This document shows, piece after piece, positions 6,435 to 39,827 of a stretch of 64,000 nt of DNA (positions are counted from its first letter, which is position 1; each line of letters begins with the position of its first letter). Made by a program: the position numbers and the translations under genes. The stretch lies in the NCBI GenBank assembly GCA_001798185.1, contig MGRM01000009.1:85745-149744 (forward strand), read 5' to 3'. The notes under the pieces are model-generated. The model ran no database searches. It saw nothing but the letters and a program-made list of their open reading frames with translations, and was not told the origin of the DNA. This DNA comes from Deltaproteobacteria bacterium RIFCSPHIGHO2_02_FULL_44_16. GTDB taxonomy: Bacteria > UBA10199 > 2-02-FULL-44-16.

Positions 6435-7753
6435 AGAAAATGTCGAAAGACTTCGTTCGAGAGTTCAATGCCTAAAAAAGTTAACGTAAAAGAATTCTCA
6501 TGTCGAAGAAGAAGTTTTTGTTGTTCAAGTTTTTTTGTCAGTCCCGGATAAACAGATTCGAGTGATACACCAAATCGTTTCTCAAACTCAGATAGTGAAA
6601 TTCCCTCTCGCGTTCGTAGTCCCAAAAAACAAAACTCAGCCATTGCAGTTTTGTGATCAATGACATCGACATCTTTTGGTTCAAAGTCTCCTTCAAGATA
6701 ACGGTGGACGTTACGAGTGGTTGTAAATCGCTCCGCGATGCGCCTGTCTGCTTGACCTTTGTGCGCGCGGTCCAGTTGGTCCGTGCTGACAAAGGTCTGC
6801 ACAGCGGCGCATGGAGATGAAAGAAACGATACAGCACCGCTTCCAAGTCCAAGATATTCTCCATAGCGCCAATAATTCAGATTGTGTCGCGATTCAAAAC
6901 TTGGACGCGCAAAATTCGAGATCTCATATCGATGCAATCCTGCTTTGTCTAAAAGTTGATGAACGAGACGAAATTGCTCAAGAGATGTTTCATCATCAAG
7001 TTTTGGTGGAAACATCTTTGTCATTCCCGCGGAAGCGGGAATCTCTTGACTGTCATGAGATCCCTGCCTTCGCAGGGATGACAAGTCTCTATATCTTTTC
7101 TCCAGCAGCGTTCCTGGTTCGAATGTCAATTGATACGCAGAAATATGATCCGGCTCAAACGAAAGCGCTCGTCTGATATCATCTTCCACTTCTTTCGTTG
7201 TTTGTCCTGGAATGGAGTAGATCAGATCGCAACTGAGATTTTGAAAACCGGCTTCTCTCGCATCGATAAGCACATGCTGAACATCATCAGCTGTGTGATC
7301 GCGATCGAGAAAGGTGAGATATTTTGGATTGAAAGATTGAATACCAATCGATAATCGATTCACTCCCGCTTTTTGCACAGACTTTAACCAATCGATGGCG
7401 CTGGTCCGCTGCGAAGTTTCGTCAGCACGGACCGACTGGACCGCGCCACCCATTGGATTCATCTCTGATGTAATTTCAATATCAGCCGAAAACGAAAATA
7501 TTTTGTGCAGTTCATTCAAAACATTTTCAAAAAATGAAGAATCCATGAGCGATGGTGTTCCACCACCAAAAAAGACTGCGTCTACTTTTCTTCCTTGAAG
7601 CGAATACAACGGAACCAAAGAGTGCAACTGCTTTATAACCGCTTGGGTATAGGCATGATGCGGAATCTCATCGCGTTTCGTCGGCAGCGAATGAAAATCA
7701 CAGTATCCGCACTTCACAATGCAATAAGGGATATGGATGTAGATGGTGAACAC
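6431..7753 (-). CDS. hemW: Radical SAM protein, HemW/HemN-like (heme chaperone / oxygen-independent coproporphyrinogen III oxidase-like)
   Basis: N-terminal 'YIHIPYCIVKCGYCDF' CxxxCxxC radical-SAM motif and HemN-like C-terminal region. Contains an in-frame family-1 repeat (translated …EIPASAGMT…). Confidence 0.7.
   Translation of the reverse strand: MFTIYIHIPYCIVKCGYCDFHSLPTKRDEIPHHAYTQAVIKQLHSLVPLYSLQGRKVDAVFFGGGTPSLMDSSFFENVLNELHKIFSFSADIEITSEMNPMGGAVQSVRADETSQRTSAIDWLKSVQKAGVNRLSIGIQSFNPKYLTFLDRDHTADDVQHVLIDAREAGFQNLSCDLIYSIPGQTTKEVEDDIRRALSFEPDHISAYQLTFEPGTLLEKRYRDLSSLRRQGSHDSQEIPASAGMTKMFPPKLDDETSLEQFRLVHQLLDKAGLHRYEISNFARPSFESRHNLNYWRYGEYLGLGSGAVSFLSSPCAAVQTFVSTDQLDRAHKGQADRRIAERFTTTRNVHRYLEGDFEPKDVDVIDHKTAMAEFCFLGLRTREGISLSEFEKRFGVSLESVYPGLTKKLEQQKLLLRHENSFTLTFLGIELSNEVFRHFL
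7020..7083. repeat. Hairpin-pair palindromic repeat element (family 1), copy C, embedded in frame inside the hemW-like coding sequence
   Basis: gtcattcccgcggaagcgggaatctcttgactgtcatgagatccctgccttcgcagggatgaca lies within the continuous 440 aa ORF. Confidence 0.6.
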
Positions 7754-7807
7754 CGACGACCAATAAGTGTCGGATACTTTCTGGTCAATAACCTAATTCA
7801 TGTCAGA

Positions 7808-7828
7808 AACTGTCGAAATATGACAGTT
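7808..7828. promoter_or_regulatory. Inverted repeat AACTGTC-N7-GACAGTT, candidate AbiEi operator (site 1)
   Basis: aactgtcgaaatatgacagtt in the promoter region upstream of abiEi. A second copy lies ~71 bp downstream. Confidence 0.4.
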
Positions 7829-7878
7829 TTTAACATATATCTTGATTGTTTCAATAAAATTCTGTAATTTATGCTAAC

Positions 7879-7899
7879 AACTGTCAAAAAATGACAGTT
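7879..7899. promoter_or_regulatory. Inverted repeat AACTGTC-N7-GACAGTT, candidate AbiEi operator (site 2)
   Basis: aactgtcaaaaaatgacagtt immediately upstream of the abiEi start (7911). AbiEi antitoxins are known to autoregulate through paired inverted repeats. Confidence 0.4.
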
Positions 7900-7910: not shown

Positions 7911-8546
7911 ATGAATCAACTTCTCGCAAAAATTAAAGAGAAGATTCCTTCTGAATGCTTCACGGACACCGAACTTGCCACCATTCTGGAGGGATCTAAG
8001 CATCGCCGCTATGGCCTCGTGAAGCGAGCCATCGCTCACGGCGATCTCATTTCGCTGCGCCGTGGACTCTATTGTCTCGGCTCCCTGCATCAACAATCTT
8101 CCCTTGATTCCCTCGCATTAAGCCAACGTCTGTATGGTCCTTCCTACATCAGTTTTGAACTTGCTCTCTCCCACCATGGATGGATTCCTGAAGGGGTGCA
8201 CGTTGTCACCGCTGCTTGTCTTAAACGCTCGCAACAATTTAAAACACCCCTTGGAACTTTTTCCTACCGACATGTAAGCTCAAAACCTTTTTTCGCAGGA
8301 GTCCGCACGATTCCCCTTGAAAAGGGAACGATCTTTATGGCCACTCCCTGGAAAGCACTCGCTGATTATATTTTTTTCTTTCACAAGAAATGGAAAGGGC
8401 TCACACCCCTTCTTCATTCACTCCGAATCGACGAAGATATTTTTCAACAGATGAACATGGAAGAATTCACTGAAGCAGAACAAGCTTATAAAAATCATCG
8501 CGTCATATCATTTTTTGCACATCTTCGAAAGGATCTCTTGCTATGA
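7911..8546 (+). CDS. abiEi: AbiEi-family antitoxin / transcriptional regulator (type IV TA / abortive infection)
   Basis: N-terminal AbiEi_4-like wHTH with '…HGDLISLRRGLYCLGS…'. ATGA overlap with the downstream AbiEii gene. Confidence 0.65.
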   Translation: MNQLLAKIKEKIPSECFTDTELATILEGSKHRRYGLVKRAIAHGDLISLRRGLYCLGSLHQQSSLDSLALSQRLYGPSYISFELALSHHGWIPEGVHVVTAACLKRSQQFKTPLGTFSYRHVSSKPFFAGVRTIPLEKGTIFMATPWKALADYIFFFHKKWKGLTPLLHSLRIDEDIFQQMNMEEFTEAEQAYKNHRVISFFAHLRKDLLL

Positions 8547-9424
8547 GCACAAAAATTCTTCAGGATCGACTTGATACCTACAATGCTCAAACTTCGTGGG
8601 AAGAAGAGATCGCGCTGAAAGAAATTCTTCAAGAGATTATTCTTGCAGCTCTTGGGAGAACCGATTTTTTTAAATATGCTGCGTTCCAGGGAGGAACAGC
8701 TCTTCGCATTCTTTATAGTCTTGAACGCTTTTCCGAAGATCTTGATTTTATTTTGCAGCAGGAAGAGAAAAGTTTTGCAATCACATCTTATCTTCAAGCA
8801 ATCCAACTTGAATGCACCTCGTATGGTATGTCACTTGAATTTCAGGATCGATCAAAAGCAGATCAAGCTGTTAAAAAAGCTTTTCTCAAAGACAATTCTC
8901 TCGGTAAAATTTTGCACATCAAACATCCCAGCATCTCTTCGCCTTCAACCCCTAAAAAACTACGCATTAAACTAGAGATCGATACGAATCCACCTGCAGG
9001 GAGTCATACAGAAATCAAATATCTGAACTTTCCCTTTGCTTCAGCTGTAACGATGCAGAATCTTCCAAGTCTTTTTGCAGGAAAAAGTCACGCGCTGCTC
9101 TGTCGCGAATATGTGAAGGGAAGAGATTGGTACGATTTTCTCTGGTACGTCGTCCGAAAAACATCTCTCAATTTTGAATTCCTGACACAGGCTTGTCGAC
9201 AACAGGGACCATGGAAACATCAAACGATGGTGATCACCCAAGAATGGTATTTGCATGAAATGAAAAAAAAGATTGAGTCCATCAATTGGCAAGAAGCGCA
9301 ACAAGATGTGATGCCATTTCTCCGTGCACATCATCTGAAGTCTCTTGAACTCTGGAGCACTGATTTTTTTCTGGATGCACTTCAAAAACTTGAACAGATC
9401 TTATCTGAAAAATCCGTAAGCTAA
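8543..9424 (+). CDS. abiEii: AbiEii/AbiGii-family nucleotidyltransferase toxin (DUF1814)
   Basis: Signature 'AAFQGGTALRILYSLERFSEDLDFI' (GGTAL…RFSEDLDF) of AbiEii nucleotidyltransferases. Confidence 0.75.
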   Translation: MSTKILQDRLDTYNAQTSWEEEIALKEILQEIILAALGRTDFFKYAAFQGGTALRILYSLERFSEDLDFILQQEEKSFAITSYLQAIQLECTSYGMSLEFQDRSKADQAVKKAFLKDNSLGKILHIKHPSISSPSTPKKLRIKLEIDTNPPAGSHTEIKYLNFPFASAVTMQNLPSLFAGKSHALLCREYVKGRDWYDFLWYVVRKTSLNFEFLTQACRQQGPWKHQTMVITQEWYLHEMKKKIESINWQEAQQDVMPFLRAHHLKSLELWSTDFFLDALQKLEQILSEKSVS

Positions 9425-10993: not shown

Positions 10994-11060
10994 TTATTGG
11001 TAAATGATCTTTAAAGAAGCGGCTTGTCATAGCGGCGAAAACCCGTTAGGAGCGGTGTTC

Positions 11061-14000
11061 ATGTCAGATAACCGACAACAACGCGTGAAAGCCTTGAAAC
11101 AGGCGCTTCAGGAACGAATTCTCGTCCTTGATGGGGCCATGGGGACAGCACTGCAAGGTTTTAATCTGACAGCCGATGATTTCGGAGGAGAAAAATATGA
11201 AGGATGTAATGAGCATCTGATTCTGACGCGGCCCGATGTCGTTAAAAAAATTCACAACAGCTATTTAGAAGCGGGGGCTGATATTATTGAAACGAACACA
11301 TTTGGCGGCACTCCTCTGGTGCTCGCTGAATACGATTTGCAAGAGAAAGCATATGAGATCAACAAACGTGGTGCTGAAATAGCTCGCGGCTGCGCTGATT
11401 CCTTTTCAACTGCTGCGCAGCCACGGTGGATTGCTGGTTCCATTGGTCCCACCACAAAAGCCATTACGGTCACTGGCGGTGTTACGTTTCAACAACTCAT
11501 TGATCATTTTTATGCGCAAGCAAAAGGTCTCTATGATGGTGGTGTCGATTATTTTCTGATCGAAACCTGTCAAGATACGCGCAACATTAAAGCAGCTATT
11601 CTTGGCATTCAAAAATTATTTCAGGAAGGGCGACAGCCCCTGCCGATTGCAGTTTCCGGAACGATTGAAAACACCGGAACTATGCTGGCTGGACAATCTG
11701 CTGAAGCACTTGTCGTTTCACTTTCACATCTCGATCTTCTCTATATCGGTATTAACTGCGCTACTGGTCCTGACTTCATGACCGATCACATCCGTTCGAT
11801 GTCAGGGCTAGCGCCCTTTTCTGTTGCTTGTGTGCCAAATGCCGGCTTGCCCGATGTCGATGGAAATTATCTTGAGACACCACAAATGATGGCAACGATT
11901 CTCGCACGCTTTTGCGAGGCGGGATGGATCAATCTCCTCGGCGGTTGCTGTGGCACCACTCCAGCGCATATTCGAACATTTGTGGACGTGGCAAAGAAAT
12001 ATCGACCGCGTGTTCCAAAAAAACAAGGGACCAGCCTTTTGGCGGGGATTGAACTTCTCGAAGTCACCGATGAAAAACGACCGATGCTTGTGGGAGAGCG
12101 AACCAATGTCATCGGCAGTCGAAAATTTAAAAAACTGATTTGCGAAGAAAAGTTCGACGAAGCGAGTGAAATTGCGCGAGCGCAAGTGAAAGCTGGAGCT
12201 CATGTCATTGATGTTTGTCTCGCAAATCCTGACCGAGATGAACTGTCAGACATGAAACAGTTCCTCGAAAAAGTGATTCATAAAATCAAAGTTCCACTCA
12301 TGATTGATTCCACGGATGAAAAAGTTGTGGAACTGGCACTCACCTATTCTCAAGGCAAAGCCATTATTAACTCTATTAATCTTGAAGATGGCGAAGAGCG
12401 CTTTGAAAAAATTATTCCACTGGTGAAAAAATATGGCGCTGCTGTTGTCGTGGGATGTATTGATGATGACCCACAACAAGGGATGGGAGTCACACGAGAG
12501 CGCAAACTTGAAATTGCAACACGATCGCATGAACTCCTTACCAAAAAACATGGTCTTCCTTCTGAAGATATTTACTGGGATCCACTTGTCTTCCCATGCG
12601 CGACTGGCGATGCACAGTACATCGGTTCTGCAGCAGAAACCATTGAAGGTGTCGGACTCATCAAACAAAAACTTCCACAAACAAAAACGGTTCTGGGTAT
12701 CTCCAATGTCTCGTTTGGTTTGCCGCCAGCTGGACGCGAAGTTCTCAATTCTGTTTTTCTTCATCATTGCGTCAAAAAGGGTCTCGACCTCGCAATTGTG
12801 AATGCAGAGCAGCTCGTGCGCTTTGCTTCTATTTCAGAAGAAGAGTTACAACTTGCGGATGACCTTCTTTACAATCGTGGTGAAGATCCAATCGCAGCTT
12901 TTGCTGCGTTCTATCGTGGAAAGAAAAAAGAAAAGCAGGTCTCTTCTCGCGAGCACATGTCGCTCGATGAACGACTCGCCGCATATATTGTTGAAGGAAC
13001 AAAAGATGGTCTCTTTCCAGATTTAGATGCAACATTAAAAGAGGAGCGCAGTCCTTTGGAAGTAATCAATGGCCCTCTCATGAAAGGGATGGATGAAGTC
13101 GGTCGTCTTTTTAATAACAATGAATTGATTGTCGCTGAAGTGTTGCAAAGCGCTGAGTCGATGAAAGCGGCGGTTGAATATTTAAAACCACACATGCCAA
13201 AAAATGAGAACACGTCTTCCCGCGGAAAAGTTATCCTCGCAACGGTGAAAGGTGATGTGCACGATATCGGAAAAAATCTCGTCGAAATTATTCTTTCGAA
13301 TAACGGATTTGAAGTGGTCAACCTTGGCATCAAAGTGCCATCAGAACAGCTGATCAAAGCGATCTCAGAGCACCGCCCTGATATCGTCGGTCTCTCAGGG
13401 CTTCTCGTGAAATCAGCGCAGCAGATGCAACTGACTGCTGATGATTTGAATCGTGCAGGCATTGATCTTCCGATTATGGTGGGAGGCGCTGCGCTTTCAG
13501 AAAATTTTACCAATAAACGCATCGCTCCTGCATACGGCGAAGGAACAGTGGTCTATGCAAAAGATGCGATGGAAGGTTTAAATCTCGCGCGTCGTATTCG
13601 AAATCCGAAAGAATTTATTTTGTTGAAAGAAAAATTAAAAACAAAGCAAACAGCATCGGTTGAAAATGAAAAAATTGAGGCGCTGAAACAAGAATCTGCG
13701 CAGCAGAGATCTTCTCTCATAGAAACAGCGTCGCTTCCAGTTCCACCTGATTTTGAACCGCATATTCTTACCAACACCCCGCTCGATCACATCTGGCCCT
13801 ACATTAACAATCTCATGCTCTATACACGTCATCTTGGTGTGAAGGGAAAATATGTAAAACTCCTGGATGCAAAAAAATTTGATGAACTCAAAAAGGACCC
13901 AGAAGAAGGACGTAAGGCCTTTGAAATATTTGAAACGCTTGAAGAGCTGAAAAAAGAATGCCGCGCTGGCCTCATGCACGTGAAAGCGACCTTTCAATTC

Positions 14001-14666
14001 TTTCGTGCAACAAGTCATGGCAATACAATAGACCTTTTTCAAAACGTTGTTTCGAAACGGGTCCTGCCGTCTGCGGTGTTCCGGCCCTCCCGCTTATCGC
14101 GGGAGACCCTCCCGGAAGCACCTCCGACGTCACCCGATTCATGGAATTTTGAAAAAGATCTATTGTCACCAGATGCAACCTTTACATTTCCACGACAACA
14201 AAAAGAAGAGGGTCTATGTCTCGCTGATTATGTGCTTCCAAAAGAACGAGATGCTATTGACACCGTCGCTCTTTTTGTTGTTACGGCCGGAAAAGGCATT
14301 CGCCATCTCGCAGAGAAATGGAAGCAAGAAGGACTTTATCTCAAATCGCATCTCATCCAAGCACTCGCGATTGAAACAGCTGAAGCCTATGCAGAAATGT
14401 TACATGCGAAACTTCGCTCTATGTGGGGTTTCCCTGATCCAATTGACATGACCATGATGCAGCGCTTTCAAGCAAAATATCGTGGCAAGCGATATTCTTT
14501 TGGATATCCGGCATGTCCGAATCTGGAAGATCAGAAAACACTTTTCGATCTTTTATCTCCAAAAAACATTGGCGTCGAACTCACCGAAGGATTCATGATG
14601 GATCCTGAGGCGAGCGTCTCCGCCATTGTTTTTCATCATCCACAGTGTACGTATTTTGGTGTTTAA
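11061..14666 (+). CDS. metH: Cobalamin-dependent methionine synthase
   Basis: Hcy-binding, pterin-binding and B12-binding ('TVKGDVHDIGKNLV', DxHxxG) domains plus an AdoMet activation domain; ~1200 aa. Confidence 0.9.
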   Translation: MSDNRQQRVKALKQALQERILVLDGAMGTALQGFNLTADDFGGEKYEGCNEHLILTRPDVVKKIHNSYLEAGADIIETNTFGGTPLVLAEYDLQEKAYEINKRGAEIARGCADSFSTAAQPRWIAGSIGPTTKAITVTGGVTFQQLIDHFYAQAKGLYDGGVDYFLIETCQDTRNIKAAILGIQKLFQEGRQPLPIAVSGTIENTGTMLAGQSAEALVVSLSHLDLLYIGINCATGPDFMTDHIRSMSGLAPFSVACVPNAGLPDVDGNYLETPQMMATILARFCEAGWINLLGGCCGTTPAHIRTFVDVAKKYRPRVPKKQGTSLLAGIELLEVTDEKRPMLVGERTNVIGSRKFKKLICEEKFDEASEIARAQVKAGAHVIDVCLANPDRDELSDMKQFLEKVIHKIKVPLMIDSTDEKVVELALTYSQGKAIINSINLEDGEERFEKIIPLVKKYGAAVVVGCIDDDPQQGMGVTRERKLEIATRSHELLTKKHGLPSEDIYWDPLVFPCATGDAQYIGSAAETIEGVGLIKQKLPQTKTVLGISNVSFGLPPAGREVLNSVFLHHCVKKGLDLAIVNAEQLVRFASISEEELQLADDLLYNRGEDPIAAFAAFYRGKKKEKQVSSREHMSLDERLAAYIVEGTKDGLFPDLDATLKEERSPLEVINGPLMKGMDEVGRLFNNNELIVAEVLQSAESMKAAVEYLKPHMPKNENTSSRGKVILATVKGDVHDIGKNLVEIILSNNGFEVVNLGIKVPSEQLIKAISEHRPDIVGLSGLLVKSAQQMQLTADDLNRAGIDLPIMVGGAALSENFTNKRIAPAYGEGTVVYAKDAMEGLNLARRIRNPKEFILLKEKLKTKQTASVENEKIEALKQESAQQRSSLIETASLPVPPDFEPHILTNTPLDHIWPYINNLMLYTRHLGVKGKYVKLLDAKKFDELKKDPEEGRKAFEIFETLEELKKECRAGLMHVKATFQFFRATSHGNTIDLFQNVVSKRVLPSAVFRPSRLSRETLPEAPPTSPDSWNFEKDLLSPDATFTFPRQQKEEGLCLADYVLPKERDAIDTVALFVVTAGKGIRHLAEKWKQEGLYLKSHLIQALAIETAEAYAEMLHAKLRSMWGFPDPIDMTMMQRFQAKYRGKRYSFGYPACPNLEDQKTLFDLLSPKNIGVELTEGFMMDPEASVSAIVFHHPQCTYFGV
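14059..14136. repeat. GC-rich palindromic segment embedded in frame in metH (linker before the activation domain)
   Basis: gggtcctgccgtctgcggtgttccggccctcccgcttatcgcgggagaccctcccgg… contains the hairpin ctcccgc-ttatc-gcgggag. The local GC content clearly exceeds that of the surrounding coding sequence. Confidence 0.35.
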
Positions 14667-21466: not shown

Positions 21467-22647
21467 TTCATCCTGTGAAAGTACCAAGTGCTGGCGAATC
21501 CGTAACAGAAGCGTTCATTGGCGAATGGAAAGTCCATAATGGTGATGTCGTCAAAAAAGGCCAGGTGATTGTCGATCTTGAAAGTCAAAAAGCAACGTTT
21601 GAACTGGAAGCTGAATCAACAGGACGCATTGAGATCAAACGTCCAACTGAAGGCGATCGCGTTACAATTGGCGAAGTCATCGCAACGATTGATGATGCCA
21701 ATGGAAAATCTGTAGGGGCGCATGGCCATGCGCCTGAGGGCGAACGCCGTTCGCCCCTACAGCAACAAACATTCATGCAAACATCCCAGAAAACTTCTTC
21801 TTCGCAAGTTGGTCCTGCTGCACGACGACGTGGAGCTGAAGTTATAGAGGTACCGGGCTCTGCGCCCGAGGGCGAACGCCGTTCGCCCCTACCTGCAACC
21901 CCATCTGTACAACCGATAAAATATACGCTCGATACAGCACGCGGTGAGCGAGCTGAAAAAGCATCACGCATTCGAAAACAGATCGCGCAAAATTTAGTTA
22001 CAGCTCAACATACTGCTGCGATTCTCACGACCTTTAATGAAGTCGACATGTCAGCAATCACTGAACTTCGAAAAAAGTATAAAGATTCCATCCTCAAAAA
22101 ACATGGTGTGAAAATCGGAATGGTTGGACCTTTTGCGATGGCCGCAAAACGAGCTCTCCTCAAATATCCTCTCGTGAATTCAACTTTTACGGGCGAAGAA
22201 ATTATCAAGCGCGATTTCATCGATCTCTCGATTGCTGTCAGCACTGAAAAAGGACTTGTGGTTCCCGTCATAAAAGACCTGCAAGGTCTCGATTGGATCG
22301 GATTTGAAAAAAAATTAACTGAACTCGCCACCAAAGCACGAGATGGAAAACTCTCCATTCCAGAGATGACCGGCGGAACGTTTACGATTACGAACGGCGG
22401 CGTGTTTGGTTCTCTCTTAGCCACTCCACTTCTCAATATGCCGCAAAGTGCGATTTTAGGCCTTCATAAAATCGAAGATCGTCCCGTTGCTCTCGAAGGA
22501 AAAGTGGTGGTACGTCCGATGATGTATATTGCTCTTTCGTATGATCACCGTCTGTTAGATGGAAAAGATGCCATTGAATTTATCGTCTCGATAAAAGAAG
22601 CAATCGAAAATCCGAGTTTGATCATTGATGAATCAATATTGAAATGA
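21463..22647 (+). CDS. sucB: Dihydrolipoyllysine-residue succinyltransferase (2-oxoglutarate dehydrogenase E2)
   Basis: N-terminal lipoyl domain ('…DLESQKATFELEAESTG…'), linker, and C-terminal catalytic domain ('…SYDHRLLDGKDA…'). Confidence 0.85.
   Translation: MIHPVKVPSAGESVTEAFIGEWKVHNGDVVKKGQVIVDLESQKATFELEAESTGRIEIKRPTEGDRVTIGEVIATIDDANGKSVGAHGHAPEGERRSPLQQQTFMQTSQKTSSSQVGPAARRRGAEVIEVPGSAPEGERRSPLPATPSVQPIKYTLDTARGERAEKASRIRKQIAQNLVTAQHTAAILTTFNEVDMSAITELRKKYKDSILKKHGVKIGMVGPFAMAAKRALLKYPLVNSTFTGEEIIKRDFIDLSIAVSTEKGLVVPVIKDLQGLDWIGFEKKLTELATKARDGKLSIPEMTGGTFTITNGGVFGSLLATPLLNMPQSAILGLHKIEDRPVALEGKVVVRPMMYIALSYDHRLLDGKDAIEFIVSIKEAIENPSLIIDESILK
21730..21760. repeat. 31 bp palindromic repeat embedded in frame in the sucB linker (copy 1)
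   Basis: gcgcctgagggcgaacgccgttcgcccctac. The core GGCGAACG/CGTTCGCC is a perfect palindrome and translates to APEGERRSP. Confidence 0.55.
21863..21893. repeat. 31 bp palindromic repeat embedded in frame in the sucB linker (copy 2)
   Basis: gcgcccgagggcgaacgccgttcgcccctac, 133 bp downstream of copy 1. It also translates to APEGERRSP. Confidence 0.55.
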
Positions 22648-29556: not shown

Positions 29557-29559
29557 TTC

Positions 29560-32711: not shown

Positions 32712-32862
32712 AGGCCAACCGCGCTAACGATTGGCCCTTAAATAGGGGACAGGAAAACCCGTCCACTTGTTCAATGCAAGTACACTTGTAGCGGTTCCCC
32801 TCCATTAAATCAAGAGCCCTTTCGTTTTCCTGTGGGTTCAATTTAAATAGGGAGGTTCTGAA

Positions 32863-33123
32863 ATGAACTTAACTCAAGAACAGCTTAAACAAATTTGGTT
32901 TAAAGCTAAAAACGCAGGTGCAGAAAACGACCGGAATGGCTTTCGTAAAGACAAATACGGAGCTTGGATAAAATGGTCTGACTACGGCAACAGAAACAGT
33001 CAATATGGATGGGAAGTTGACCACATTATTGCCACCGCAAATGGTGGGTCTGACACTATGAGCAATCTTTGCCCACTGCATTGGAAAAACAACGCATCCA
33101 AAAGCGGCAGCAGATTCTTATAG
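32863..33123 (+). CDS. Small HNH endonuclease
   Basis: 'YGWEVDHIIATANGGSDTMSNLCPLHWKNNASK' H-N-H core. GGGAGG RBS 6 nt upstream. Confidence 0.65.
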   Translation: MNLTQEQLKQIWFKAKNAGAENDRNGFRKDKYGAWIKWSDYGNRNSQYGWEVDHIIATANGGSDTMSNLCPLHWKNNASKSGSRFL

Positions 33124-33237
33124 CTTGAATGTTAATGGCCTTCAGAATAAAACGACGGTAGCTTGCAATGCCGTCGTTTTTATTTTGCAAGCAAACTGCT
33201 TGGGCGCCAGATATCAAGGATATTCCCTAGAGTGAGC

Positions 33238-33336
33238 ATGATGAAACACTACATCACCGCCACTGACCTCTATAATTTCAAAAAATGCGCTTATTGGCCG
33301 TACATGGATGGCAATACGTTGATAAAAGCACTTTAA
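33238..33336 (+). pseudogene. Orphan duplicated 5' fragment of the TM0106-type nuclease gene (encodes MMKHYITATDLYNFKKCAYWPYMDGNTLIKAL*)
   Basis: Its first ~23 codons are ~85% identical at the DNA level to 34580-34650, the N-terminus of the downstream nuclease ORF. It terminates after 32 codons. Confidence 0.4.
33244..33315 (+). repeat. Direct repeat DR-L (~70 bp) flanking the DUF4143 ATPase gene
   Basis: aaacactacatcaccgccactgacctctataatttcaaaaaatgcgcttattggccgtacatggatggcaat, matching 34580-34652. Confidence 0.55.
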
Positions 33337-33426
33337 AATCAATTGGTTATAAATAAATAAGCTCTGCGAAATATATGATGTTTTCAGCAACACCATTGCG
33401 TATTTTTTAACTTCTGTTAGGCTCTC

Positions 33427-34581
33427 ATGATGGTGGATTACACACGTATTCTTGACCTTCAAACTCCTCTCAAACGGAAAAGCCTTTTTCTTTTTGGGCC
33501 TCGCCAGACGGGGAAAACCTTTTATCTCAAGAAAACTTTTCCCAATATCCCTTTTTATAATTTGCTTGAGTCGAAAACATTTCTTCGGCTGAGTCAGCGC
33601 CCTCATTTACTCCGAGAAGAATTGATGGCAACTGCATCCGCGAATCCGCTGATTATTATAGATGAAATACAAAAACTTCCTCTTTTGCTTGATGAAGTTC
33701 ATTCATTGATTGAGGAAAAGAAAATGAAGTTTATTTTAACGGGGAGCAGCGCGCGGAAGTTAAAAAGAGGTGGAGCCAATCTTTTGGGAGGTCGGGCAAC
33801 AACGCTTCACCTCTATCCATTAGTTTCCGCTGAAATTCCCAATTTTGATTTGATCCGAGCTTTAAATTGGGGAACACTTCCTTCTCTTTACCCCTCTGAC
33901 GACCCGGAAAACGATCTTCATGATTATGTCGGAAATTATCTCAAAGAAGAAATCCAGGCGGAGGGGTTGGCGCGAAACATCGGAAATTTCTCTCGTTTTC
34001 TCCAAACAGCATCACTCTGCAACGCGGAACAAACTCATTTTACAAATATTGGAAACGATGCCCAAATATCGCCTCGCACTGTAGCGGAATATTTCTCCAT
34101 CTTGGAAGACACACTCATCGGATACATTTTAGAGCCCTATACAAAGACGAAAAAACGAAAGGCAGTTTCTACCGCGAAATTCTATTTTTTTGATTGCGGC
34201 GTTTGCAACGTTTTGGCCGGACGAAGAAACATCAGTCCAAAAACAGAACTGTTCGGAAAGTCGTTTGAGCAATTTATTTTTACAGAATTGAAAGCCTATC
34301 TTTCCTATAAGCGGGATTCCCGGCCGCTTACTTTTTGGAAATCCCAAATATCAGATTACGAAGTTGATTTTTTGATCGGAGATGAAATTGCCATTGAAGT
34401 AAAAGGTTCTGAATTGATTACAGAACGCCATTTAACGGGTATTAAGGCTCTTAAAGAAGAGTTGAAATTGAAAAAGAACATTATTGTTTCCATGGATGAA
34501 AAACCTCGAAAATTGGACGGCATTGATATTTTCCCCGTTTCTCATTTCCTTGAAATGTTATGGAGCGGAGAAATTGTCTAA
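33427..34581 (+). CDS. AAA+ ATPase, AAA_14 / DUF4143 family
   Basis: Walker A 'LFGPRQTGKTFYL', Walker B 'LIIIDEIQK', and a DUF4143-like C-terminal region. Confidence 0.7.
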   Translation: MMVDYTRILDLQTPLKRKSLFLFGPRQTGKTFYLKKTFPNIPFYNLLESKTFLRLSQRPHLLREELMATASANPLIIIDEIQKLPLLLDEVHSLIEEKKMKFILTGSSARKLKRGGANLLGGRATTLHLYPLVSAEIPNFDLIRALNWGTLPSLYPSDDPENDLHDYVGNYLKEEIQAEGLARNIGNFSRFLQTASLCNAEQTHFTNIGNDAQISPRTVAEYFSILEDTLIGYILEPYTKTKKRKAVSTAKFYFFDCGVCNVLAGRRNISPKTELFGKSFEQFIFTELKAYLSYKRDSRPLTFWKSQISDYEVDFLIGDEIAIEVKGSELITERHLTGIKALKEELKLKKNIIVSMDEKPRKLDGIDIFPVSHFLEMLWSGEIV

Positions 34582-36088
34582 ACACTACATCACCGCCACT
34601 GATCTCTATAATTTCAAGAAGTGCGCCTATCGACCATTTATGGATTTCAATGGGGATCTATCGTTGAAAGTCGACGTGCATCCGCTCGTGAAACTGCTGT
34701 GGGAATCGGGAGTGCAATATGAAGCAAAGGTCATTGAATCGTATCAGCGAGATCATTCCGAAAAATCGTTTCGTGCAATCGATCCTGAGAAGCCGGCATC
34801 CGAAGCTTTGGCCAAGGAAACGCTCAAAGCAATGCAAGATGGGATTGATATCATTTATCAAGGTGTTTTGATTTCAGGAAATAAACTCGGTCGTCCTGAT
34901 CTGCTTCTGAAAACACCGGGATCTTCGTCGCTCGGCGCGCATCATTATTATCCGATGGATATTAAACTCACTCGCATTGATGCGACATGGGATGATGGCA
35001 ATGAAAAGGTTCCCATAGAACAATTCTGGCAAATCTATTTTTATGGTGAACTTTTAGAGCACGTTCAAGGCAAGCGACCAGAGAAAGGTTATATCTATAA
35101 GACCAAGTCGCGCATTCTTCCGATTCCTCTTTATAAAGCTCCCAAGAATTACGAATGGTCAGTGAATCAATTAGAAAATTATCTTCAGGGAAATGCGTTC
35201 GGAGCAGAGCCAACGATCAACAGCAATTGCGGCTTATGCGACTGGAAAGATTCATGTCGAAGTTGGGCCGATGAAAAACAGGATATTTCACTCGTCTATT
35301 ATGTTGGTCAGGCAATGAAACTCGGACTCAATCAACTCGGCATTCGTTCGATCGAAGATCTTGCGGCGCAAGATCCAGACTATTTGACGAGAAAAGTTAT
35401 AGAACTGAAAAACCAAGGATTCTTTTGGAATGCAATGCCCGCCGATCTCCCTGCAAAATCTGTTGTGCGCGCGAAGATTCACCTGAGCAAAAAACCGGTC
35501 ATCCATAACCCCATCACTTTTCCTGATGCTGAAAAAGAGATTCATTACGATATCGAAGATGACCCAACACAGGATTTTGTCTATTTGCACGGCGCCTTGC
35601 TTATCGAGAAAGGGAAAGAGCCAAAGTATTACGCCTTCTTTGCAGAACATCGCGATGAGGAACGCACCATCACCGAACACCTGTTTGATTTTTTCAATCA
35701 GCACCCGGATGCGACTGTGTATCACTACAGTGATTACGAAAAGACAACGCTTAAGCGACTCATCAGTAAGCATCAACTCGATTCGACATCGTATGAACGA
35801 TTGTTCGGTAAAAATGGAACAGCAATCGATCTTTATAAAATTGTCACCGAGAATACTGACTGGCCGCTGACAAGCTATGGCGTCAAGGCGATCTGCAAGT
35901 TTTTGGGATTTCAGTGGGATGCCAGTGATGCTGGTGGCGCCGCATCGATTGTCTGGATGAATGAATATTTAAGCGGACATACAAGCATGAAAGAGAAAAT
36001 ACTCCGATATAATGAAGACGATTGTCGGGCGACCTCTTTTCTCAAAAACGAACTCATCAAAATGCAAAATCACACGAACGATGTGTAG
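34484..36088 (+). CDS. RecB-family nuclease, TM0106-like (Cas4/RecB-like N-terminal domain with Cys cluster, RNase-H-like C-terminal domain). Start ambiguous.
   Basis: Conserved N-terminal 'HYITATDLYNFKKCAYRPFMD'; Cys cluster 'CGLCDWKDSC'; C-terminal 'HYDIEDDP…VYLHG' RNase H-like. No ATG immediately precedes the conserved N-terminus, so the only in-frame ATG (34484) overlaps the ATPase gene. Confidence 0.5.
   Translation: MFPWMKNLENWTALIFSPFLISLKCYGAEKLSKHYITATDLYNFKKCAYRPFMDFNGDLSLKVDVHPLVKLLWESGVQYEAKVIESYQRDHSEKSFRAIDPEKPASEALAKETLKAMQDGIDIIYQGVLISGNKLGRPDLLLKTPGSSSLGAHHYYPMDIKLTRIDATWDDGNEKVPIEQFWQIYFYGELLEHVQGKRPEKGYIYKTKSRILPIPLYKAPKNYEWSVNQLENYLQGNAFGAEPTINSNCGLCDWKDSCRSWADEKQDISLVYYVGQAMKLGLNQLGIRSIEDLAAQDPDYLTRKVIELKNQGFFWNAMPADLPAKSVVRAKIHLSKKPVIHNPITFPDAEKEIHYDIEDDPTQDFVYLHGALLIEKGKEPKYYAFFAEHRDEERTITEHLFDFFNQHPDATVYHYSDYEKTTLKRLISKHQLDSTSYERLFGKNGTAIDLYKIVTENTDWPLTSYGVKAICKFLGFQWDASDAGGAASIVWMNEYLSGHTSMKEKILRYNEDDCRATSFLKNELIKMQNHTNDV
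34580..34652 (+). repeat. Direct repeat DR-R (~70 bp), coinciding with the conserved N-terminal coding region of the nuclease gene
   Basis: aaacactacatcaccgccactgatctctataatttcaagaagtgcgcctatcgaccatttatggatttcaatgggg. Confidence 0.55.
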
Positions 36089-36251
36089 CATTTTTTCACT
36101 TTCTGTACAGAATCACTCCACTTTCATTTTTGTAACTCACTGATTTTCAATAGCTAACACTGGCATTACTTTTGCTTTGTCTTTCTTTGACAATAAAAAG
36201 GAGGAGTGCCATGAGTGATCTCAGCTTGAACATACCTCCTAAGGAACATAT

Positions 36252-37515: not shown

Positions 37516-37530
37516 TATTTGTTTGTACCG

Positions 37531-37566
37531 CTCATCCTGAGCCTGTCGAAGGATGAGCAGGATGAA
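37531..37566. repeat. Hairpin element in the feoA-feoB spacer
   Basis: gctcatcctgagcctgtcgaaggatgagcaggatga contains the perfect 8 bp stem gctcatcc/ggatgagc and is followed by a T-rich stretch. Confidence 0.35.
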
Positions 37567-37612
37567 GTTTTTCATGGTTCGACAGGCTCACCATGAGCGA
37601 ATTGTCATAAAG

Positions 37613-39823
37613 ATGAAAACTTTTCTCCTTGTTGGAAATCCTAATACCGGCAAAACCACTCTTTTCAATGCTCTCACCGGTCTTCATCAAAAAGTCGGAA
37701 ACTATGCAGGAGTCACCGTTGAAAAAAAAGAAGGAACGTTTCACGTCAACGATCAAAAAATTCGTCTCATTGATCTTCCTGGCACCTACAGTCTGACACC
37801 GAGTTCTCCTGACGAAGAGATTGTGGTCCAAACTCTATTGGGCCTTTCATCAGAGAAAATGTCCATTGATGGCGTCATTGTCGTTGCTGATGCCACGAAT
37901 CTCGAACGAAATCTTTATCTCACCACACAAGTCATTGATTGCGGTTTTCCGACAATTCTTGCGGTCAACATGATCGACGAAGCCAAGAAAAAGGGACAAT
38001 CCATTGAATTGGAGCTTCTTTCAAAGCGACTCGGAATTCCGGTTTTTTTTACGGCAGCAAATAAAAAAAGGGGTGTTGCTGAACTCAAAACGTATCTTGC
38101 CACAGAGACACTGCGTGCACCCCCTTCCATTTTGACACAACTGCAGCTCTCCTCTTCGGTTCGTTCACACTTAGAACAACTTGAACCGCATCTTGCTCAT
38201 ATCTCTCATTCCAATTCACGACGTGCGGAAGCGCTTCGTCTCCTTTCGCGAGATGACAAACTCGAAACTTATCCGCAGAAGCAAAATCTTTTGAAACTCT
38301 GTTCTACGATTCATTACATGCTCGAAACAGAACATGTTGATTGGAAATCTCTTGAAGCAGATGCGCGTTATCAGTGGATCAACCATGTCTGCAAATCTGC
38401 GTGCTCACGTCTTTTGCAGAAACCAAAGACTTCAATGACAGATCGCATTGATGCCATTGTCACCCATCGCATGGTGGGTCCGCTCTTCTTTTTTCTGATC
38501 GTCGGTATTATCTTCCAGGCTCTTTTTAGTTGGGCTACATTTCCGATGGACTTCATCGATAGTTTCTTTGGAAAAGCGAGCAATGTCATTCATCGGACGC
38601 TTCCCGAAGGACCAATTCGAAGTCTACTGGCTGATGGAGCAGTGGCGGGCATTGGCGGGATTATTATTTTTCTTCCTCAAATCGCGTTTCTTTTTTTCTT
38701 TATCGCGCTTCTTGAAGACTCTGGCTATATGGCACGCGCGGCATTTGTCATGGAACAGTTGATGGCAAAATTTGGTCTTCACGGAAAATCGTTCATCCCG
38801 CTCATCAGTTCTTTTGCATGTGCCATTCCGGGCATTATGGCCACACGAACGATTGAATCGAAACGAGATCGACTCATTACCATTCTCATCGCACCCCTCA
38901 TGAGTTGTAGCGCACGGCTTCCGGTGTATACGCTTCTCATTGCCGCATGCATTCCGTCACTCACGTTTCTTGGCATCTTCAATCTTCAAGGTATTGTCAT
39001 GTGGAGTCTCTATCTTTTAGGCGTTATCGCGGCTATTGCGGTTGCTTTTCTGCTCAAAAAAACAATTCTAAAAACTCCCTCACTCCCCTTTTTCATTGAG
39101 CTTCCTCCTTATCGTCTTCCTCAATTTTCAAATGTCTTTAAAAAAACGTGGGAGCGATCAAAACTTTTTTTGACGAATGCCGGGACGATTATCTTTGCCC
39201 TCTCGATCATCCTTTGGTTTTTGACGAGTTATCCGAAACCGAAAAATCATGTTGCAGAGAATTCATTTCAAAATGGACAAATGATTCGGGTGGCGTCGAC
39301 GTCGGATCCCAGGGGCGCCCCGCGTCAGCGGGGAGGTGGAACGACGGAGACGACAGGACCCGTATCAGAAAATAATTTTGAAATGAATTCTTCTGAGTCA
39401 AAAATCGCGTATAGTTTCGCCGGCCGCATGGGAAAAGCCATTGAACCTCTCATTGAACCGCTCGGTTTTAATTGGAAAATCGGAATCGGTTTGATCGCTT
39501 CTTTTGCAGCACGTGAAGTTTTTATCAGCACGATGGCCATTGTCTATAGTCTCGAAGATACTGACGAAACTTCTGAATCACTGATAAGTGCAATCAGAAA
39601 TGACGTTCATGCAGATGGACGAAAAGTTTTTAATCCGCTTGTGGCCTTAAGTCTTCTCGTTTTTTATGTGCTCGCTTGTCAGTGCATTTCTACTGTTGCG
39701 GTCGTCAAACGCGAAACCAACTCCTGGCGTTGGCCCATTTTTATGGTCGTCTATATGACTCTTCTCGCTTACGGGGCTTCGTTTATCGTCTATCAAGGAG
39801 GAAAATATTTTTTCCCTCTGTAA
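37613..39823 (+). CDS. feoB: Ferrous iron transport protein B
   Basis: G-domain 'LVGNPNTGKTTLFNALTG', 'DLPGTYSL', and a polytopic membrane domain. The ORF track start at 37553 lies within the upstream hairpin. Confidence 0.85.
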   Translation: MKTFLLVGNPNTGKTTLFNALTGLHQKVGNYAGVTVEKKEGTFHVNDQKIRLIDLPGTYSLTPSSPDEEIVVQTLLGLSSEKMSIDGVIVVADATNLERNLYLTTQVIDCGFPTILAVNMIDEAKKKGQSIELELLSKRLGIPVFFTAANKKRGVAELKTYLATETLRAPPSILTQLQLSSSVRSHLEQLEPHLAHISHSNSRRAEALRLLSRDDKLETYPQKQNLLKLCSTIHYMLETEHVDWKSLEADARYQWINHVCKSACSRLLQKPKTSMTDRIDAIVTHRMVGPLFFFLIVGIIFQALFSWATFPMDFIDSFFGKASNVIHRTLPEGPIRSLLADGAVAGIGGIIIFLPQIAFLFFFIALLEDSGYMARAAFVMEQLMAKFGLHGKSFIPLISSFACAIPGIMATRTIESKRDRLITILIAPLMSCSARLPVYTLLIAACIPSLTFLGIFNLQGIVMWSLYLLGVIAAIAVAFLLKKTILKTPSLPFFIELPPYRLPQFSNVFKKTWERSKLFLTNAGTIIFALSIILWFLTSYPKPKNHVAENSFQNGQMIRVASTSDPRGAPRQRGGGTTETTGPVSENNFEMNSSESKIAYSFAGRMGKAIEPLIEPLGFNWKIGIGLIASFAAREVFISTMAIVYSLEDTDETSESLISAIRNDVHADGRKVFNPLVALSLLVFYVLACQCISTVAVVKRETNSWRWPIFMVVYMTLLAYGASFIVYQGGKYFFPL
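39287..39365. repeat. GC-rich palindromic segment embedded in frame in feoB
   Basis: …gtcgacgtcggatcccaggggcgccccgcgtcagcggggaggtggaacgacggagacgac… contains the hairpin ccccgc-gtca-gcgggg. Encodes the hydrophilic stretch STSDPRGAPRQRGGGTTETTGP between membrane segments. Confidence 0.3.
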
Positions 39824-39827
39824 AGCA

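What the first reader, a model, noticed from the sequence alone, without database searches (positions are those of the whole stretch)
7020..39365. Recurrent in-frame, GC-rich palindromic insertions in housekeeping coding sequences (hemW, sucB x2, metH, feoB)
Five short segments are far more GC-rich than the surrounding AT-rich coding DNA and contain perfect hairpins. They are hemW 7020-7083 (family-1 repeat), sucB 21730-21760 and 21863-21893 (palindrome GGCGAACGCCGTTCGCC, twice, each encoding APEGERRSP), metH ~14059-14136 (ctcccgc-ttatc-gcgggag) and feoB ~39287-39365 (ccccgc-gtca-gcgggg). Each falls in a predicted interdomain linker or loop and keeps the reading frame, like Rickettsia palindromic elements that colonise ORFs. 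The sucB palindrome reads GERRSP on both strands, which explains the antisense ORF 21585-21971.
Basis: partly seen in the sequence, partly recalled or inferred. Interest (0 to 1): 0.65.

Follow-up and report, generated by a model that had tools for sequence, protein, structure and literature searches.

The report
In-frame palindromic repeats inside housekeeping genes
Seven short hairpin-forming repeats from at least four families sit in frame inside four core metabolic genes of an uncultured groundwater bacterium and add floppy loops to the proteins, which is a real case of the "selfish DNA inside genes" already known from Rickettsia and from REP/REPIN elements.

Summary
They are GC-rich (0.56-0.77 against 0.44-0.46 for their genes), form hairpins, keep the frame, and are absent from orthologues.

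Corrections to the finding:
- The metH and feoB segments are only the cores of whole-length hairpins of 142 and about 136 nt. The two belong to one family (B).
- Three more B copies are intergenic. Across the five copies, 13 of 46 stem pairs show compensatory changes.
- hemW carries three insertions, not one.
- One hemW insertion is a REPIN (family A). Its REP module differs by two loop bases from the Neisseria REPIN.
- The other two hemW insertions are inverted copies of a fourth family (D).
- The sucB pair (family C) is a REP doublet with GTAG at both outer ends.

AlphaFold models put the hemW and metH insertions in low-confidence loops between conserved secondary-structure elements. Distant HemW orthologues carry unrelated hairpins in the same loops.

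Best explanation: non-autonomous palindromic mobile repeats whose surviving intragenic copies are in frame, stop-free and in permissive loops. No transposase, no empty site and no proof of translation was found. This is a new member of a known kind (RPE, intragenic REP/REPIN), of moderate interest.

The parts
7019..7083 (.). Family A copy (REPIN: two inverted REP hairpins, TGTCATTCCCGCGGAAGCGGGAATC ... GATCCCTGCCTTCGCAGGGATGACA) in frame inside hemW (gene on the - strand). It encodes about LSSLRRQGSHDSQEIPASAGMT.
   Evidence: Repeat families D5/D6/D9. 5-copy alignment A11. DNA fold z -5.95. A 19-aa gap in all 22 HemW orthologues. AF2 pLDDT 54-61 for residues 231-250, between helices 216-230 and 254-270.
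7388..7457 (.). Family D copy b: hairpin in frame in hemW. Net insertion is 15 aa, MGGAVQSVRADETSQ (nt 7409-7453).
   Evidence: Inverted repeat I6. 31/33 identity to copy a in opposite orientation. Fold z -3.8. Absent from 22 orthologues, from L001 and from the HemN/NocN structures. pLDDT 54 for residues 101-110.
6731..6816 (.). Family D copy a: 86-nt hairpin in frame in hemW. Net insertion is about 27 aa, SSPCAAVQTFVSTDQLDRAHKGQADRRI (nt 6737-6817).
   Evidence: (I17). Fold z -4.3. 27-aa gap against L001. Variable loop in A10. pLDDT 50-63 for residues 311-340, between strands 308-312 and 340-344.
14025..14166 (-). Family B copy in metH: 142-nt whole-length hairpin with a 20-nt terminal inverted repeat. 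It is inverted relative to the feoB copy. Net insertion is about 38 aa in a beta-hairpin loop of the activation domain.
   Evidence: IR of 20 nt, 95% complementary. Fold z -7.0. Covariance-model hit 112.8 bits, E 1.5e-21, on the - strand. Absent from 11 orthologues. pLDDT 40-58.
39256..39394 (+). Family B copy in feoB: about 136-nt whole-length hairpin with a 17-nt perfect terminal inverted repeat and a GC-rich core. Net insertion is 47 aa (nt about 39263-39403).
   Evidence: IR of 17 nt, 100% complementary. Fold z -8.55. Covariance-model hit 157 bits. 47-aa gap against the L001 FeoB.
21710..21762 (.). Family C copy 1 in the sucB linker: two GC-rich hairpins in an inverted doublet with GTAG at both outer ends (CTGTAGGGGCGCATGGCCATGCGCC TGA GGGCGAACGCCGTTCGCCCCTACAG). 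It encodes ...GAHGHAPEGERRSPLQ.
   Evidence: D12. I25. Fold z -5.2. Palindrome count. Lies between the Pfam lipoyl and catalytic domains. Absent from P0002 and P0003.
21845..21895 (.). Family C copy 2 in the sucB linker. The right half is 31/32 identical to copy 1 and the left half is degenerate. It encodes ...GSAPEGERRSPLP.
   Evidence: Fold z -3.55.
4932..5003 (.). Family A (REPIN) copy, intergenic.
5053..5123 (.). Family A (REPIN) copy at the 5' edge of the unknown ORF that ends at 6434. It is enclosed by a 19-nt perfect inverted repeat (5028-5046 / 5163-5181).
   Evidence: Public gene calls start inside it.
42236..42299 (.). Family A (REPIN) copy between two convergent genes.
62940..63010 (.). 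Family A (REPIN) copy, intergenic.

Best explanation
The segments are copies of small, non-autonomous, hairpin-forming mobile repeats of the REP/REPIN/MITE class. At least four families are present: A, B, C and D. All seven copies lie inside protein-coding genes.

Shown:
- The insertions exist, form hairpins and are lineage-specific.
- Families A and B are dispersed and have intergenic copies.
- The B hairpin is kept by compensatory changes.
- The hemW and metH insertions map to poorly ordered loops.
- The reading frames stay open.

Inferred:
- The elements spread as single-stranded DNA hairpins handled by a trans-acting transposase. A RAYT-type Y1 enzyme is the obvious candidate for family A, given the near-identity of its REP module to the Neisseria REPIN.
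- Most intragenic insertions are lethal and are lost. The survivors have a net length that is a multiple of three, lack stop codons (helped by the GC-rich cores), and fall in surface loops or linkers.
- The surviving copies are translated as extra disordered loops of 10-47 aa that are neutral or nearly neutral for protein function.
For: Real, lineage-specific insertions:
- HemW: three gaps against L001 and 22 orthologues.
- MetH: a gap of about 38 aa in 11 orthologues.
- FeoB: a 47-aa gap against a 61%-identical relative.
- SucB: the copies are absent from the closest relatives.
- SucA, in the same operon, has no insertion.

Repeat-family status:
- Family A has 5 copies in the window, 4 of them outside genes. 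Its 24-mer motif hits at least 120 IMG/VR contigs, several as inverted pairs 50-60 nt apart.
- Its REP module is 19/21 identical to the Neisseria REPIN master sequence.
- The metH and feoB B copies align over about 120 nt in opposite orientation, z 18.6. Three more copies are intergenic in L040 and L046. All five score 113-160 bits with the covariance model.

Structure is maintained:
- Family B has 46 stem pairs, 93.8% paired.
- 13 pairs show double compensatory changes, against 5.9 +/- 1.6 in shuffles (0 of 500 reach 13) and 1-4 in slid controls.

Hairpin stability: z from -3.6 to -8.6.

Loop positions: in the AF2 HemW model (mean pLDDT 88.9) the three insertions hold almost all of the low-confidence residues. 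The MetH insertion has pLDDT 40-58, the lowest stretch of that model, and lies between two strands.

Open frames: B copies are stop-free in 8 of 30 frames, against 7.8% for random sequence of that length.

Not an assembly artefact: the identical HemW with all three insertions is in two NCBI MAGs and several ENA/JGI assemblies, and L048 is 100% identical to the window.

Permissive-site logic: distant HemW orthologues carry unrelated hairpins (z -5.2 to -8.4) in the same two loops. A sister SucB linker carries a different GTCAT...ATGAC palindrome, with a weaker fold (z -2.5).

Precedent: in-frame RPEs and intragenic REPs (PMC10969869; PMC3733652).
Against: - No transposase (RAYT, IS200/IS605 or DDE) was seen in the window or in the other loci sampled, about 100 kb in all.
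- No insertion-free allele or empty site was found in any close strain.
- No target-site duplication is evident for A or B.
- Families C and D have only two copies each. Both copies lie in the same gene, and none occurs elsewhere in the sequence sampled. For these two families, local duplication is not excluded.
- The whole source genome could not be scanned, because it is absent from both large DNA collections.
- Translation of the inserts is inferred from the intact frames only.
- The FeoB insertion rests on a single relative.
- In metH the left outer stem of the hairpin is conserved host coding sequence, which a simple cut-and-paste insertion does not explain.
Confidence: 0.8

Rival explanations
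1. Local origin without mobility. The hairpins arose in place, by short intragenic duplication or inversion and by template-switch (quasi-palindrome) replication errors that create and extend palindromes. On this reading they are not transposable elements.
For: - Families C and D each have exactly two copies, in the same gene. C copies are 132 nt apart in direct orientation and D copies 624 nt apart in inverted orientation. No other copy occurs in the window or the fetched loci.
- In metH the left outer stem (14025-14039) encodes the conserved host strand TIDLF, and the right stem is its inverted copy. Template switching would produce exactly this.
- The outer stems of B copies differ between copies but stay complementary.
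Against: - Families A and B are dispersed over unrelated loci with conserved internal sequence.
- Family A matches a REP module known to be mobilised by a RAYT in Neisseria.
- The sequence between the two sucB copies is not duplicated.
- Template switching can extend a palindrome but does not explain how the same 120-nt core reached metH, feoB and three intergenic sites.
Confidence: 0.12
2. Selected cis-acting structures. The hairpins are kept because they act in the mRNA or DNA of these genes, for example by pausing translation between domains, stabilising or processing mRNA, attenuating transcription, or binding a protein.
For: - Compensatory changes preserve the B hairpin.
- G.T pairs outnumber A.C pairs 18 to 6 on one strand, which suggests a single-stranded functional form.
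- Four of five B copies are co-oriented with the nearest or host gene.
- REPs downstream of genes are known to affect mRNA stability (PMC3733652).
Against: - The metH copy is inverted relative to its mRNA, yet it is equally intact.
- The same family sits in coding and non-coding contexts of unrelated genes.
- Four unrelated families and unrelated hairpins in other lineages occupy the same permissive protein loops. This points to protein-level tolerance and not to a gene-specific RNA function.
- There is no Rfam match at gathering score. The only weak hit is FtrB, at 36 bits against a cut-off of 66, and it matches both strands.
- The G.T excess may partly reflect how the consensus structure was derived.
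Confidence: 0.06
3. Nothing special. These are ordinary variable linkers or loops with chance GC-rich hairpins, or MAG assembly or annotation artefacts.
For: Linkers such as the one in SucB are naturally variable and rich in Pro, Ala and Gly. The HemW third site is a variable loop.
Against: - Inverted repeats of at least 14 nt within 200 nt: 7 observed against 1.2 expected.
- Exact repeats occur at 0.00-0.02 expected by chance.
- Family relationships have z above 14.
- The covariance-model E-values reach 1e-21 to 1e-31.
- Identical sequence appears in independent assemblies.
Confidence: 0.02

Closest known systems
Rickettsia palindromic elements (RPE-1 and relatives; Ogata et al. 2000, Science 290:347, as summarised in PMC10969869)
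   Same: - Palindromic repeats of about 100-150 bp, dispersed in the genome.
- A large share is inserted in frame in unrelated housekeeping genes and translated as extra surface segments compatible with the fold.
- Family B (134-148 nt; 2 of 5 known copies are intragenic) behaves in just this way.
   Different: - The host is a different, uncultured lineage with about 44% GC (NCBI label 'Deltaproteobacteria bacterium RIFCSPHIGHO2_02_FULL_44_16'), not an AT-rich obligate intracellular alphaproteobacterium.
- Sequence homology to RPEs was not tested.
- Here the cores are GC-rich relative to the genome.
- Several unrelated families, from about 50 nt up to 148 nt, are involved at once.
REPINs and their RAYT transposases (Bertels and Rainey; Neisseria REPIN, REP = ATTCCCGCGCAGGCGGGAATC, Group 2 RAYT; bioRxiv 10.1101/2021.07.10.451892)
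   Same: Family A consists of two 21-24-nt REP hairpins in inverted orientation about 20-25 nt apart, which form one long hairpin. Its REP module, ATTCCCGCGAAAGCGGGAATC, differs from the Neisseria master sequence only in two loop bases.
   Different: - REPINs are described as extragenic. Here one copy is in frame inside hemW.
- No RAYT gene was found in the roughly 100 kb sampled.
- Genome-wide copy number is unknown.
GTAG- and CGTC-tagged REPs, including intragenic REPs (Di Nocera et al. 2013, PMC3733652)
   Same: - Short GC-rich stem-loops with a terminal GTAG, often as inverted dimers.
- The paper reports REPs entirely inside ORFs encoding about 10-30 aa, sometimes twice in the same ORF.
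- The sucB doublet has GTAG at both outer ends and occurs twice in one ORF.
- One hemW D copy carries CGTC next to the stem.
   Different: - Families C and D were seen only inside one gene each (two copies each), not as abundant extragenic families.
- The CGTC tag is present in only one of the two D copies.
Bacterial MITEs found within genes (ERIC, Correia, BOX and others; reviewed in PMC10969869)
   Same: Terminal inverted repeats (17-20 nt in family B), small size, no coding capacity of their own, and occasional in-frame fusion with host ORFs.
   Different: - No target-site duplication is visible.
- The outermost 8-13 bp of the B stems differ between copies while staying complementary. Transposase-binding TIRs of DDE-type MITEs are conserved in sequence.

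Membership tests
REPIN / REP-RAYT system | A short (about 20-25 nt) palindromic REP module repeated many times in the genome | tested here: met
   Family A has ten modules in five copies in the window, plus a half copy at L050:5755-5790. The module is 19/21 identical to the Neisseria REP.
REPIN / REP-RAYT system | Two REP modules in inverted orientation less than 130 bp apart, forming one hairpin | tested here: met
   All five family A copies have two inverted modules about 20-25 nt apart. The hemW copy folds with z -5.95.
REPIN / REP-RAYT system | A cognate RAYT (Y1 HUH transposase) gene in the same genome, typically flanked by REPs | not testable with these tools
   No Y1_Tnp or other transposase domain appears in the window ORFs scanned with Pfam or in the gene tables of L040, L048 and L050.
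GTAG/CGTC-tagged REPs (Di Nocera 2013) | A GC-rich stem-loop with GTAG (or CGTC) at one end | tested here: met
   sucB copy 1 reads GTAGGGGCGCATGGCCATGCGCC on the + strand and GTAGGGGCGAACGGCGTTCGCCC on the - strand. In family D, CGTC is next to the stem in copy b only, and copy a has TGTC.
GTAG/CGTC-tagged REPs (Di Nocera 2013) | An abundant, mostly extragenic repeat family | tested here: not met
   Only two copies each of C and D were found. All four are intragenic, and none occurs elsewhere in the window or the fetched loci. The sample is only about 100 kb, so this is provisional.
Rickettsia palindromic elements | A dispersed palindromic repeat of about 100-150 bp with copies inserted in frame in unrelated genes | tested here: met
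   Family B has 5 copies of 134-148 nt, 2 of them in frame in metH and feoB.
Rickettsia palindromic elements | The inserted peptide lies at the protein surface or in a loop and is compatible with the fold | tested here: met
   AF2 models of HemW and the MetH activation domain place the inserts in low-pLDDT loops between conserved elements. FeoB and SucB were judged from domain coordinates and alignments only.
Rickettsia palindromic elements | Sequence homology to the RPE-1 to RPE-10 consensus sequences | not tested
   No RPE reference sequences were available in the tools. Membership is therefore not claimed, only functional analogy.
DDE-type MITE | Terminal inverted repeats conserved in sequence among copies | tested here: inconclusive
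   The inner TIR, TTTCAAAA / TTTTGAAA, is invariant in 5 of 5 B copies. The outer 8-13 bp differ between copies yet remain complementary.
DDE-type MITE | Direct target-site duplication flanking each copy | tested here: not met
   No consistent direct repeat was seen by eye in the flanks of the five B copies (alignment A8) or the five A copies (A11).
Intein or self-splicing intron | Splicing domains or motifs (Hint domain, or a group I/II ribozyme) | tested here: not met
   The inserts are only 10-47 aa. Pfam finds no extra domains in the four host proteins. Rfam gives no intron match at gathering score or at E <= 1.

The most novel reading that the evidence does not exclude
Family B (and perhaps D) may be a self-correcting palindromic replicator adapted to live inside genes. 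On this reading its hairpin is kept perfect, and even extended, by intra-hairpin template switching that copies adjacent host coding sequence into the opposite arm.

The metH copy suggests this: the conserved strand codons TIDLF form the left outer stem and reappear inverted on the right. If true:
- The compensatory 'covariation' would be produced by the copying mechanism and not by selection.
- The elements would actively rewrite host loops.
- The same permissive loops of HemW and the SucB linker would be recurrent landing pads across uncultured lineages.
Probability: 0.15. Interest if true: 0.65.

Novelty: new member of a known kind. Interest (0 to 1): 0.42.

Why it matters
The case shows that in-frame colonisation of core genes by palindromic repeats is not confined to Rickettsia. 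It also occurs, at high local density, in an uncultured groundwater lineage: seven insertions in four genes within 33 kb. Unrelated elements occupy the same HemW loops in other lineages.

Practical consequences:
- Such inserts inflate protein lengths, create spurious antisense and small ORFs, and can mislead domain annotation in MAGs.
- They mark permissive loop sites in HemW, MetH, FeoB and SucB that could be used for protein engineering.
- Family B, with strong compensatory stem evolution, is a tractable model for how hairpin repeats persist.

Tried and rejected
1. Genome-contig scan with a 19-nt family B block. It returned 23 singleton hits in unrelated genomes. All match only the 19-mer, so they are chance hits. 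The window's own copies were not returned, so the source MAG is not in that collection.

2. Metagenome-contig scan with a 20-nt block of the 150-nt intergenic MITE, intended to sample the source genome. Of 15 hits, only L039 is a true relative.

3. PDB sequence searches. They were uninformative at the MetH insertion and found nothing for the FeoB membrane half or the YhcG-like protein.

4. Cluster-member look-up for insertion-free alleles. Only start-codon variants turned up.

One window ORF was not on record.

6. Extra inverted repeats in L040, L048 and L050 that fall inside genes. Folding shows them to be chance (z -3.0 to +0.3). The one strong hairpin, L048:8150-8235, is intergenic.

7. Viral-contig scan for family B: no hit.

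8. Rfam: nothing at gathering score. There is only a weak match on both strands to FtrB over the hemW REPIN, 36 bits against a cut-off of 66. It is not a member.

9. Tandem duplication of a 132-nt unit in sucB was rejected, because only about 48 nt are shared.

10. Intein or intron readings were rejected on size and the lack of motifs.

Full report
**Source and genes.**
The window is about 44% GC throughout. Its SucB is 100% identical to a protein of the MAG 'Deltaproteobacteria bacterium RIFCSPHIGHO2_02_FULL_44_16' from Rifle groundwater. The locus L048, from an independent ENA assembly, is 100% identical to the window over 11.7 kb. NCBIfam and Pfam confirm the four host genes:
- hemW: 6431-7753, - strand, 440 aa
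- metH: 11004-14666
- sucB: 21463-22647
- feoB: true start 37613, ends 39823

**Check of the observation.**
The five segments have GC of 0.56 (hemW), 0.74 and 0.77 (sucB), 0.72 (metH) and 0.72 (feoB). Their genes have 0.44-0.46. The 60-nt window distribution is 0.442 +/- 0.070. The sucB palindrome occurs exactly twice, against 0.02 expected. It encodes APEGERRSP twice. Every segment folds as DNA far better than shuffles, with z from -3.6 to -8.6. Close-range inverted repeats of at least 14 nt number 7, against 1.2 in shuffles.

1. The metH and feoB GC-rich bits are only the cores of whole-length hairpins. These span 14025-14166 (142 nt; 20-nt terminal arms, 95% complementary) and 39258-39391 (17-nt perfect arms), with z -7.0 and -8.6. 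The two align with each other in opposite orientation over about 120 nt, z 18.6 against shuffles. They therefore form one family (B).
2. hemW holds two more GC-rich hairpins, at 6731-6816 and 7388-7457. They share a 33-nt core (31/33 identical) in opposite orientation and form family D.
3. The sucB copies form family C and the hemW 'family-1' copy belongs to family A. No cross-family similarity was found.

**Are they insertions?**
- HemW was aligned with the syntenic relative L001 (52% identity) and with 22 orthologues.
  - Two gaps are clean and universal: 15 aa (MGGAVQSVRADETSQ) and 19 aa (the family A copy).
  - A third insertion of about 27 aa lies in a loop that is variable among orthologues.
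  - The first gap is also absent from the HemN and NocN structures.
- MetH: 11 orthologues at 54-64% identity all lack about 38 aa.
- FeoB: the L001 orthologue (61% identity) lacks exactly 47 aa.
- SucB: the copies lie in the linker between the lipoyl domain (aa 4-76) and the catalytic domain (aa 161-387). They are absent from the two closest relatives.
- SucA, next door, has no insertion, so the effect is gene-specific.

The identical insert-bearing HemW occurs in two NCBI MAGs and several ENA/JGI assemblies. This excludes an assembly artefact. No insert-free allele was found.

**Structural position.**
- AF2 HemW model (23-sequence alignment, mean pLDDT 88.9). Almost all low-confidence residues lie in or at the edges of the three insertions, and every 10-residue block averaging below 85 overlaps one of them.
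  - Residues 101-110: pLDDT 54.
  - Residues 231-250: pLDDT 54-61.
  - Residues 311-340: pLDDT 50-63.
  - Each stretch bridges conserved secondary-structure elements.
- AF2 MetH activation-domain model. The insertion has pLDDT 40-58, the lowest stretch in the model. It lies between strands 76-80 and 126-129 of the modelled fragment.

For sucB and feoB it rests on domain coordinates and alignment.

**Family A is a REPIN.**
Five copies in the window share the architecture TGTCAT[T/C]CC[C/T]GCG-loop-GC[A/G]GG[A/G]ATC ... inverted copy ... ATGACA. Four are outside genes or at a gene edge. Only the hemW copy is internal to a gene.
- The REP module ATTCCCGCGAAAGCGGGAATC differs in two loop bases from the Neisseria REPIN master sequence ATTCCCGCGCAGGCGGGAATC. 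That sequence is mobilised by a Group 2 RAYT (bioRxiv 10.1101/2021.07.10.451892).
The module is therefore cosmopolitan.

**Family B is a dispersed, structure-conserving hairpin.**
A library-wide search with the feoB insert peptide found two tiny spurious ORFs at 76-79% identity. Their contigs carry further B copies:
- L040:9976-10113, 90% identical to the feoB copy, just upstream of rpiB.
- L040:7693-7840, between a TerC-family gene and gdh.
- L046:295-431, 3' of an ORF.

L040 also carries the window's 150-nt MITE, so it comes from the same or a sister population. A covariance model scores all five copies at 113-160 bits and finds no others in 116 kb.

Across the five copies:
- 46 stem pairs are 93.8% paired.
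- 13 pairs show compensatory double changes, against 5.9 +/- 1.6 in shuffles (0 of 500) and 1-4 when partners are slid.
- The inner termini, TTTCAAAA / TTTTGAAA, are invariant.
- The outer 8-13 bp differ between copies yet stay complementary.
- G.T pairs outnumber A.C pairs 18 to 6 in one orientation. This hints at a strand-specific single-stranded form, with the caveat that the structure was derived in that orientation.
- B copies are stop-free in 8 of 30 frames, against 7.8% for random sequence. This helps explain survival inside genes.

**Families C and D.**
- sucB copy 1 is an inverted doublet of two GC-rich hairpins with GTAG at both outer ends. It matches the GTAG-tagged REP format of Di Nocera et al. 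(PMC3733652).
- That paper also documents REPs wholly inside ORFs, sometimes twice in one ORF.
- One D copy has CGTC beside the stem and the other has TGTC.
- C and D each have only two copies, both in one gene, and none elsewhere in the sequence I could sample. Their mobility is therefore inferred, not shown.

**Recurrence in other lineages.**
Distant HemW orthologues carry their own, unrelated in-frame hairpins at the same two loops:
- L053, from GCA_021810905.1: z -8.4 and z -6.3.
- L054, from GCA_016180845.1: z -5.2.

The sister SucB (L052) has a different GTCATTGCGAGG...CTCGCGATGAC palindrome in its linker, with a weaker fold (z -2.5). This fits selection for permissive protein sites and not a gene-specific RNA function.

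**Mechanism.**
- Shown:
  - The inserts are lineage-specific.
  - They form hairpins.
  - Families A and B are dispersed.
  - The B stem evolves by compensatory change.
  - The inserts sit in loops.
  - The reading frames stay open.
- Inferred:
  - Mobilisation as ssDNA hairpins by a trans-acting Y1/RAYT-like enzyme. No transposase was found in about 100 kb, and no target-site duplication is visible.
  - Survivorship filtering for frame, stop-free sequence and loop position.
  - Translation into disordered loops.

**Unexplained.**
In metH the left outer stem (14025-14039) is the codons of the conserved host strand TIDLF (AF2 strand, pLDDT about 90). The right outer stem is its inverted copy. 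This suggests palindrome extension by template switching. It is the basis of the novel reading, to which I give a probability of about 0.15.

**Comparison and verdict.**
The behaviour matches RPEs (review PMC10969869) and intragenic REPs. Family A meets the structural definition of a REPIN. RAYT association could not be tested, and RPE homology was not tested. The finding is real and richer than reported, but it is a new member of a known kind. Interest is moderate (0.42). Its value lies in the local density of insertions, the multi-family picture, the convergent use of the same loops, and the strongly covarying family B.

Noticed in passing
window 21463-22647 (SucB aa ~100-160); also P0002, P0003: SucB of this lineage lacks the peripheral-subunit-binding domain (PF02817) that nearly all other close homologues keep. 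Only a 'GPAARRRGAE' remnant remains, and the second palindrome sits where the domain would be.
   Followed up: partly
window 39826-39985, 48617-48772, 54075-54230, 56035-56190; L039:12172-12316; L040:1309-1435: A 150-nt MITE-like repeat with about 35-nt imperfect terminal inverted repeats, 76-95% identical between copies. It is always intergenic (after feoB, before aspS, before gatC, between gatA and gatB) and has no Rfam match.
   Followed up: partly
window 37529-37599: A 71-nt palindrome (CGCTCATCCTGAGCCTGTCGAAGGATGA ... inverted) just upstream of the real feoB start at 37613. It creates a spurious N-terminal ORF extension (MSRMKFFMVRQAHHER). A related copy is in L039.
   Followed up: partly
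window 5028-5181: A 19-nt perfect inverted repeat (5028-5046 / 5163-5181) encloses a family A REPIN. Its right arm contains the ATG at 5166 of an unknown ORF that ends at 6434. Public gene calls start that ORF inside the REPIN.
   Followed up: partly
window 14025-14039 and 14152-14166: The left outer stem of the metH hairpin is conserved host coding sequence (strand TIDLF). The right stem is its inverted copy. This suggests palindrome extension into host sequence by template switching.
   Followed up: partly
window 28769-28820: A hairpin of about 52 nt (13-bp inner stem and 8-bp outer stem), not GC-rich, inside the YhcG/DUF1016 nuclease gene. It may be another in-frame palindrome. It was not compared with orthologues, and there was no PDB hit.
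   Followed up: no
window ~24300-36100; also 8543-9424 and 17538-18444: A defence and mobile-gene cluster: Fic, N6/N4 DNA methylase, YhcG nuclease, ResIII helicase, TnsA-like endonuclease, DUF4143 ATPase and RNase_H_2. There is also an AbiEii toxin and a HEPN/nucleotidyltransferase pair.
   Followed up: no
window 33244-33315 and 34580-34651: A 72-nt direct repeat (85% identity) lying just upstream and just downstream of the DUF4143 ATPase gene (33427-34581).
   Followed up: no
L053:1622-1714 and 1883-2008; L054:1802-1897; L052:861-989: Other uncultured lineages carry unrelated in-frame hairpins in the same HemW loops and in the SucB linker (z -2.5 to -8.4).
   Followed up: partly
window 22639-22842: A 204-nt element with 19-23-nt terminal inverted repeats fills the sucB-lpdA intergenic space. 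Its left arm overlaps the sucB stop codon.
   Followed up: no
L049 versus the window, about 54.6-56.0 kb: A sister assembly differs from the window by a single 22-nt indel, and its gatA is called as two ORFs where the window has one. The indel was not located, so a link between the two is unconfirmed, as is whether it is a strain variant or an assembly error.
   Followed up: no
window 7003-7101: The hemW REPIN gives a weak match on both strands to Rfam FtrB (Francisella sRNA B): 36 bits against a gathering score of 66, E 4e-4. That sRNA family may itself derive from a similar palindromic repeat.
   Followed up: no
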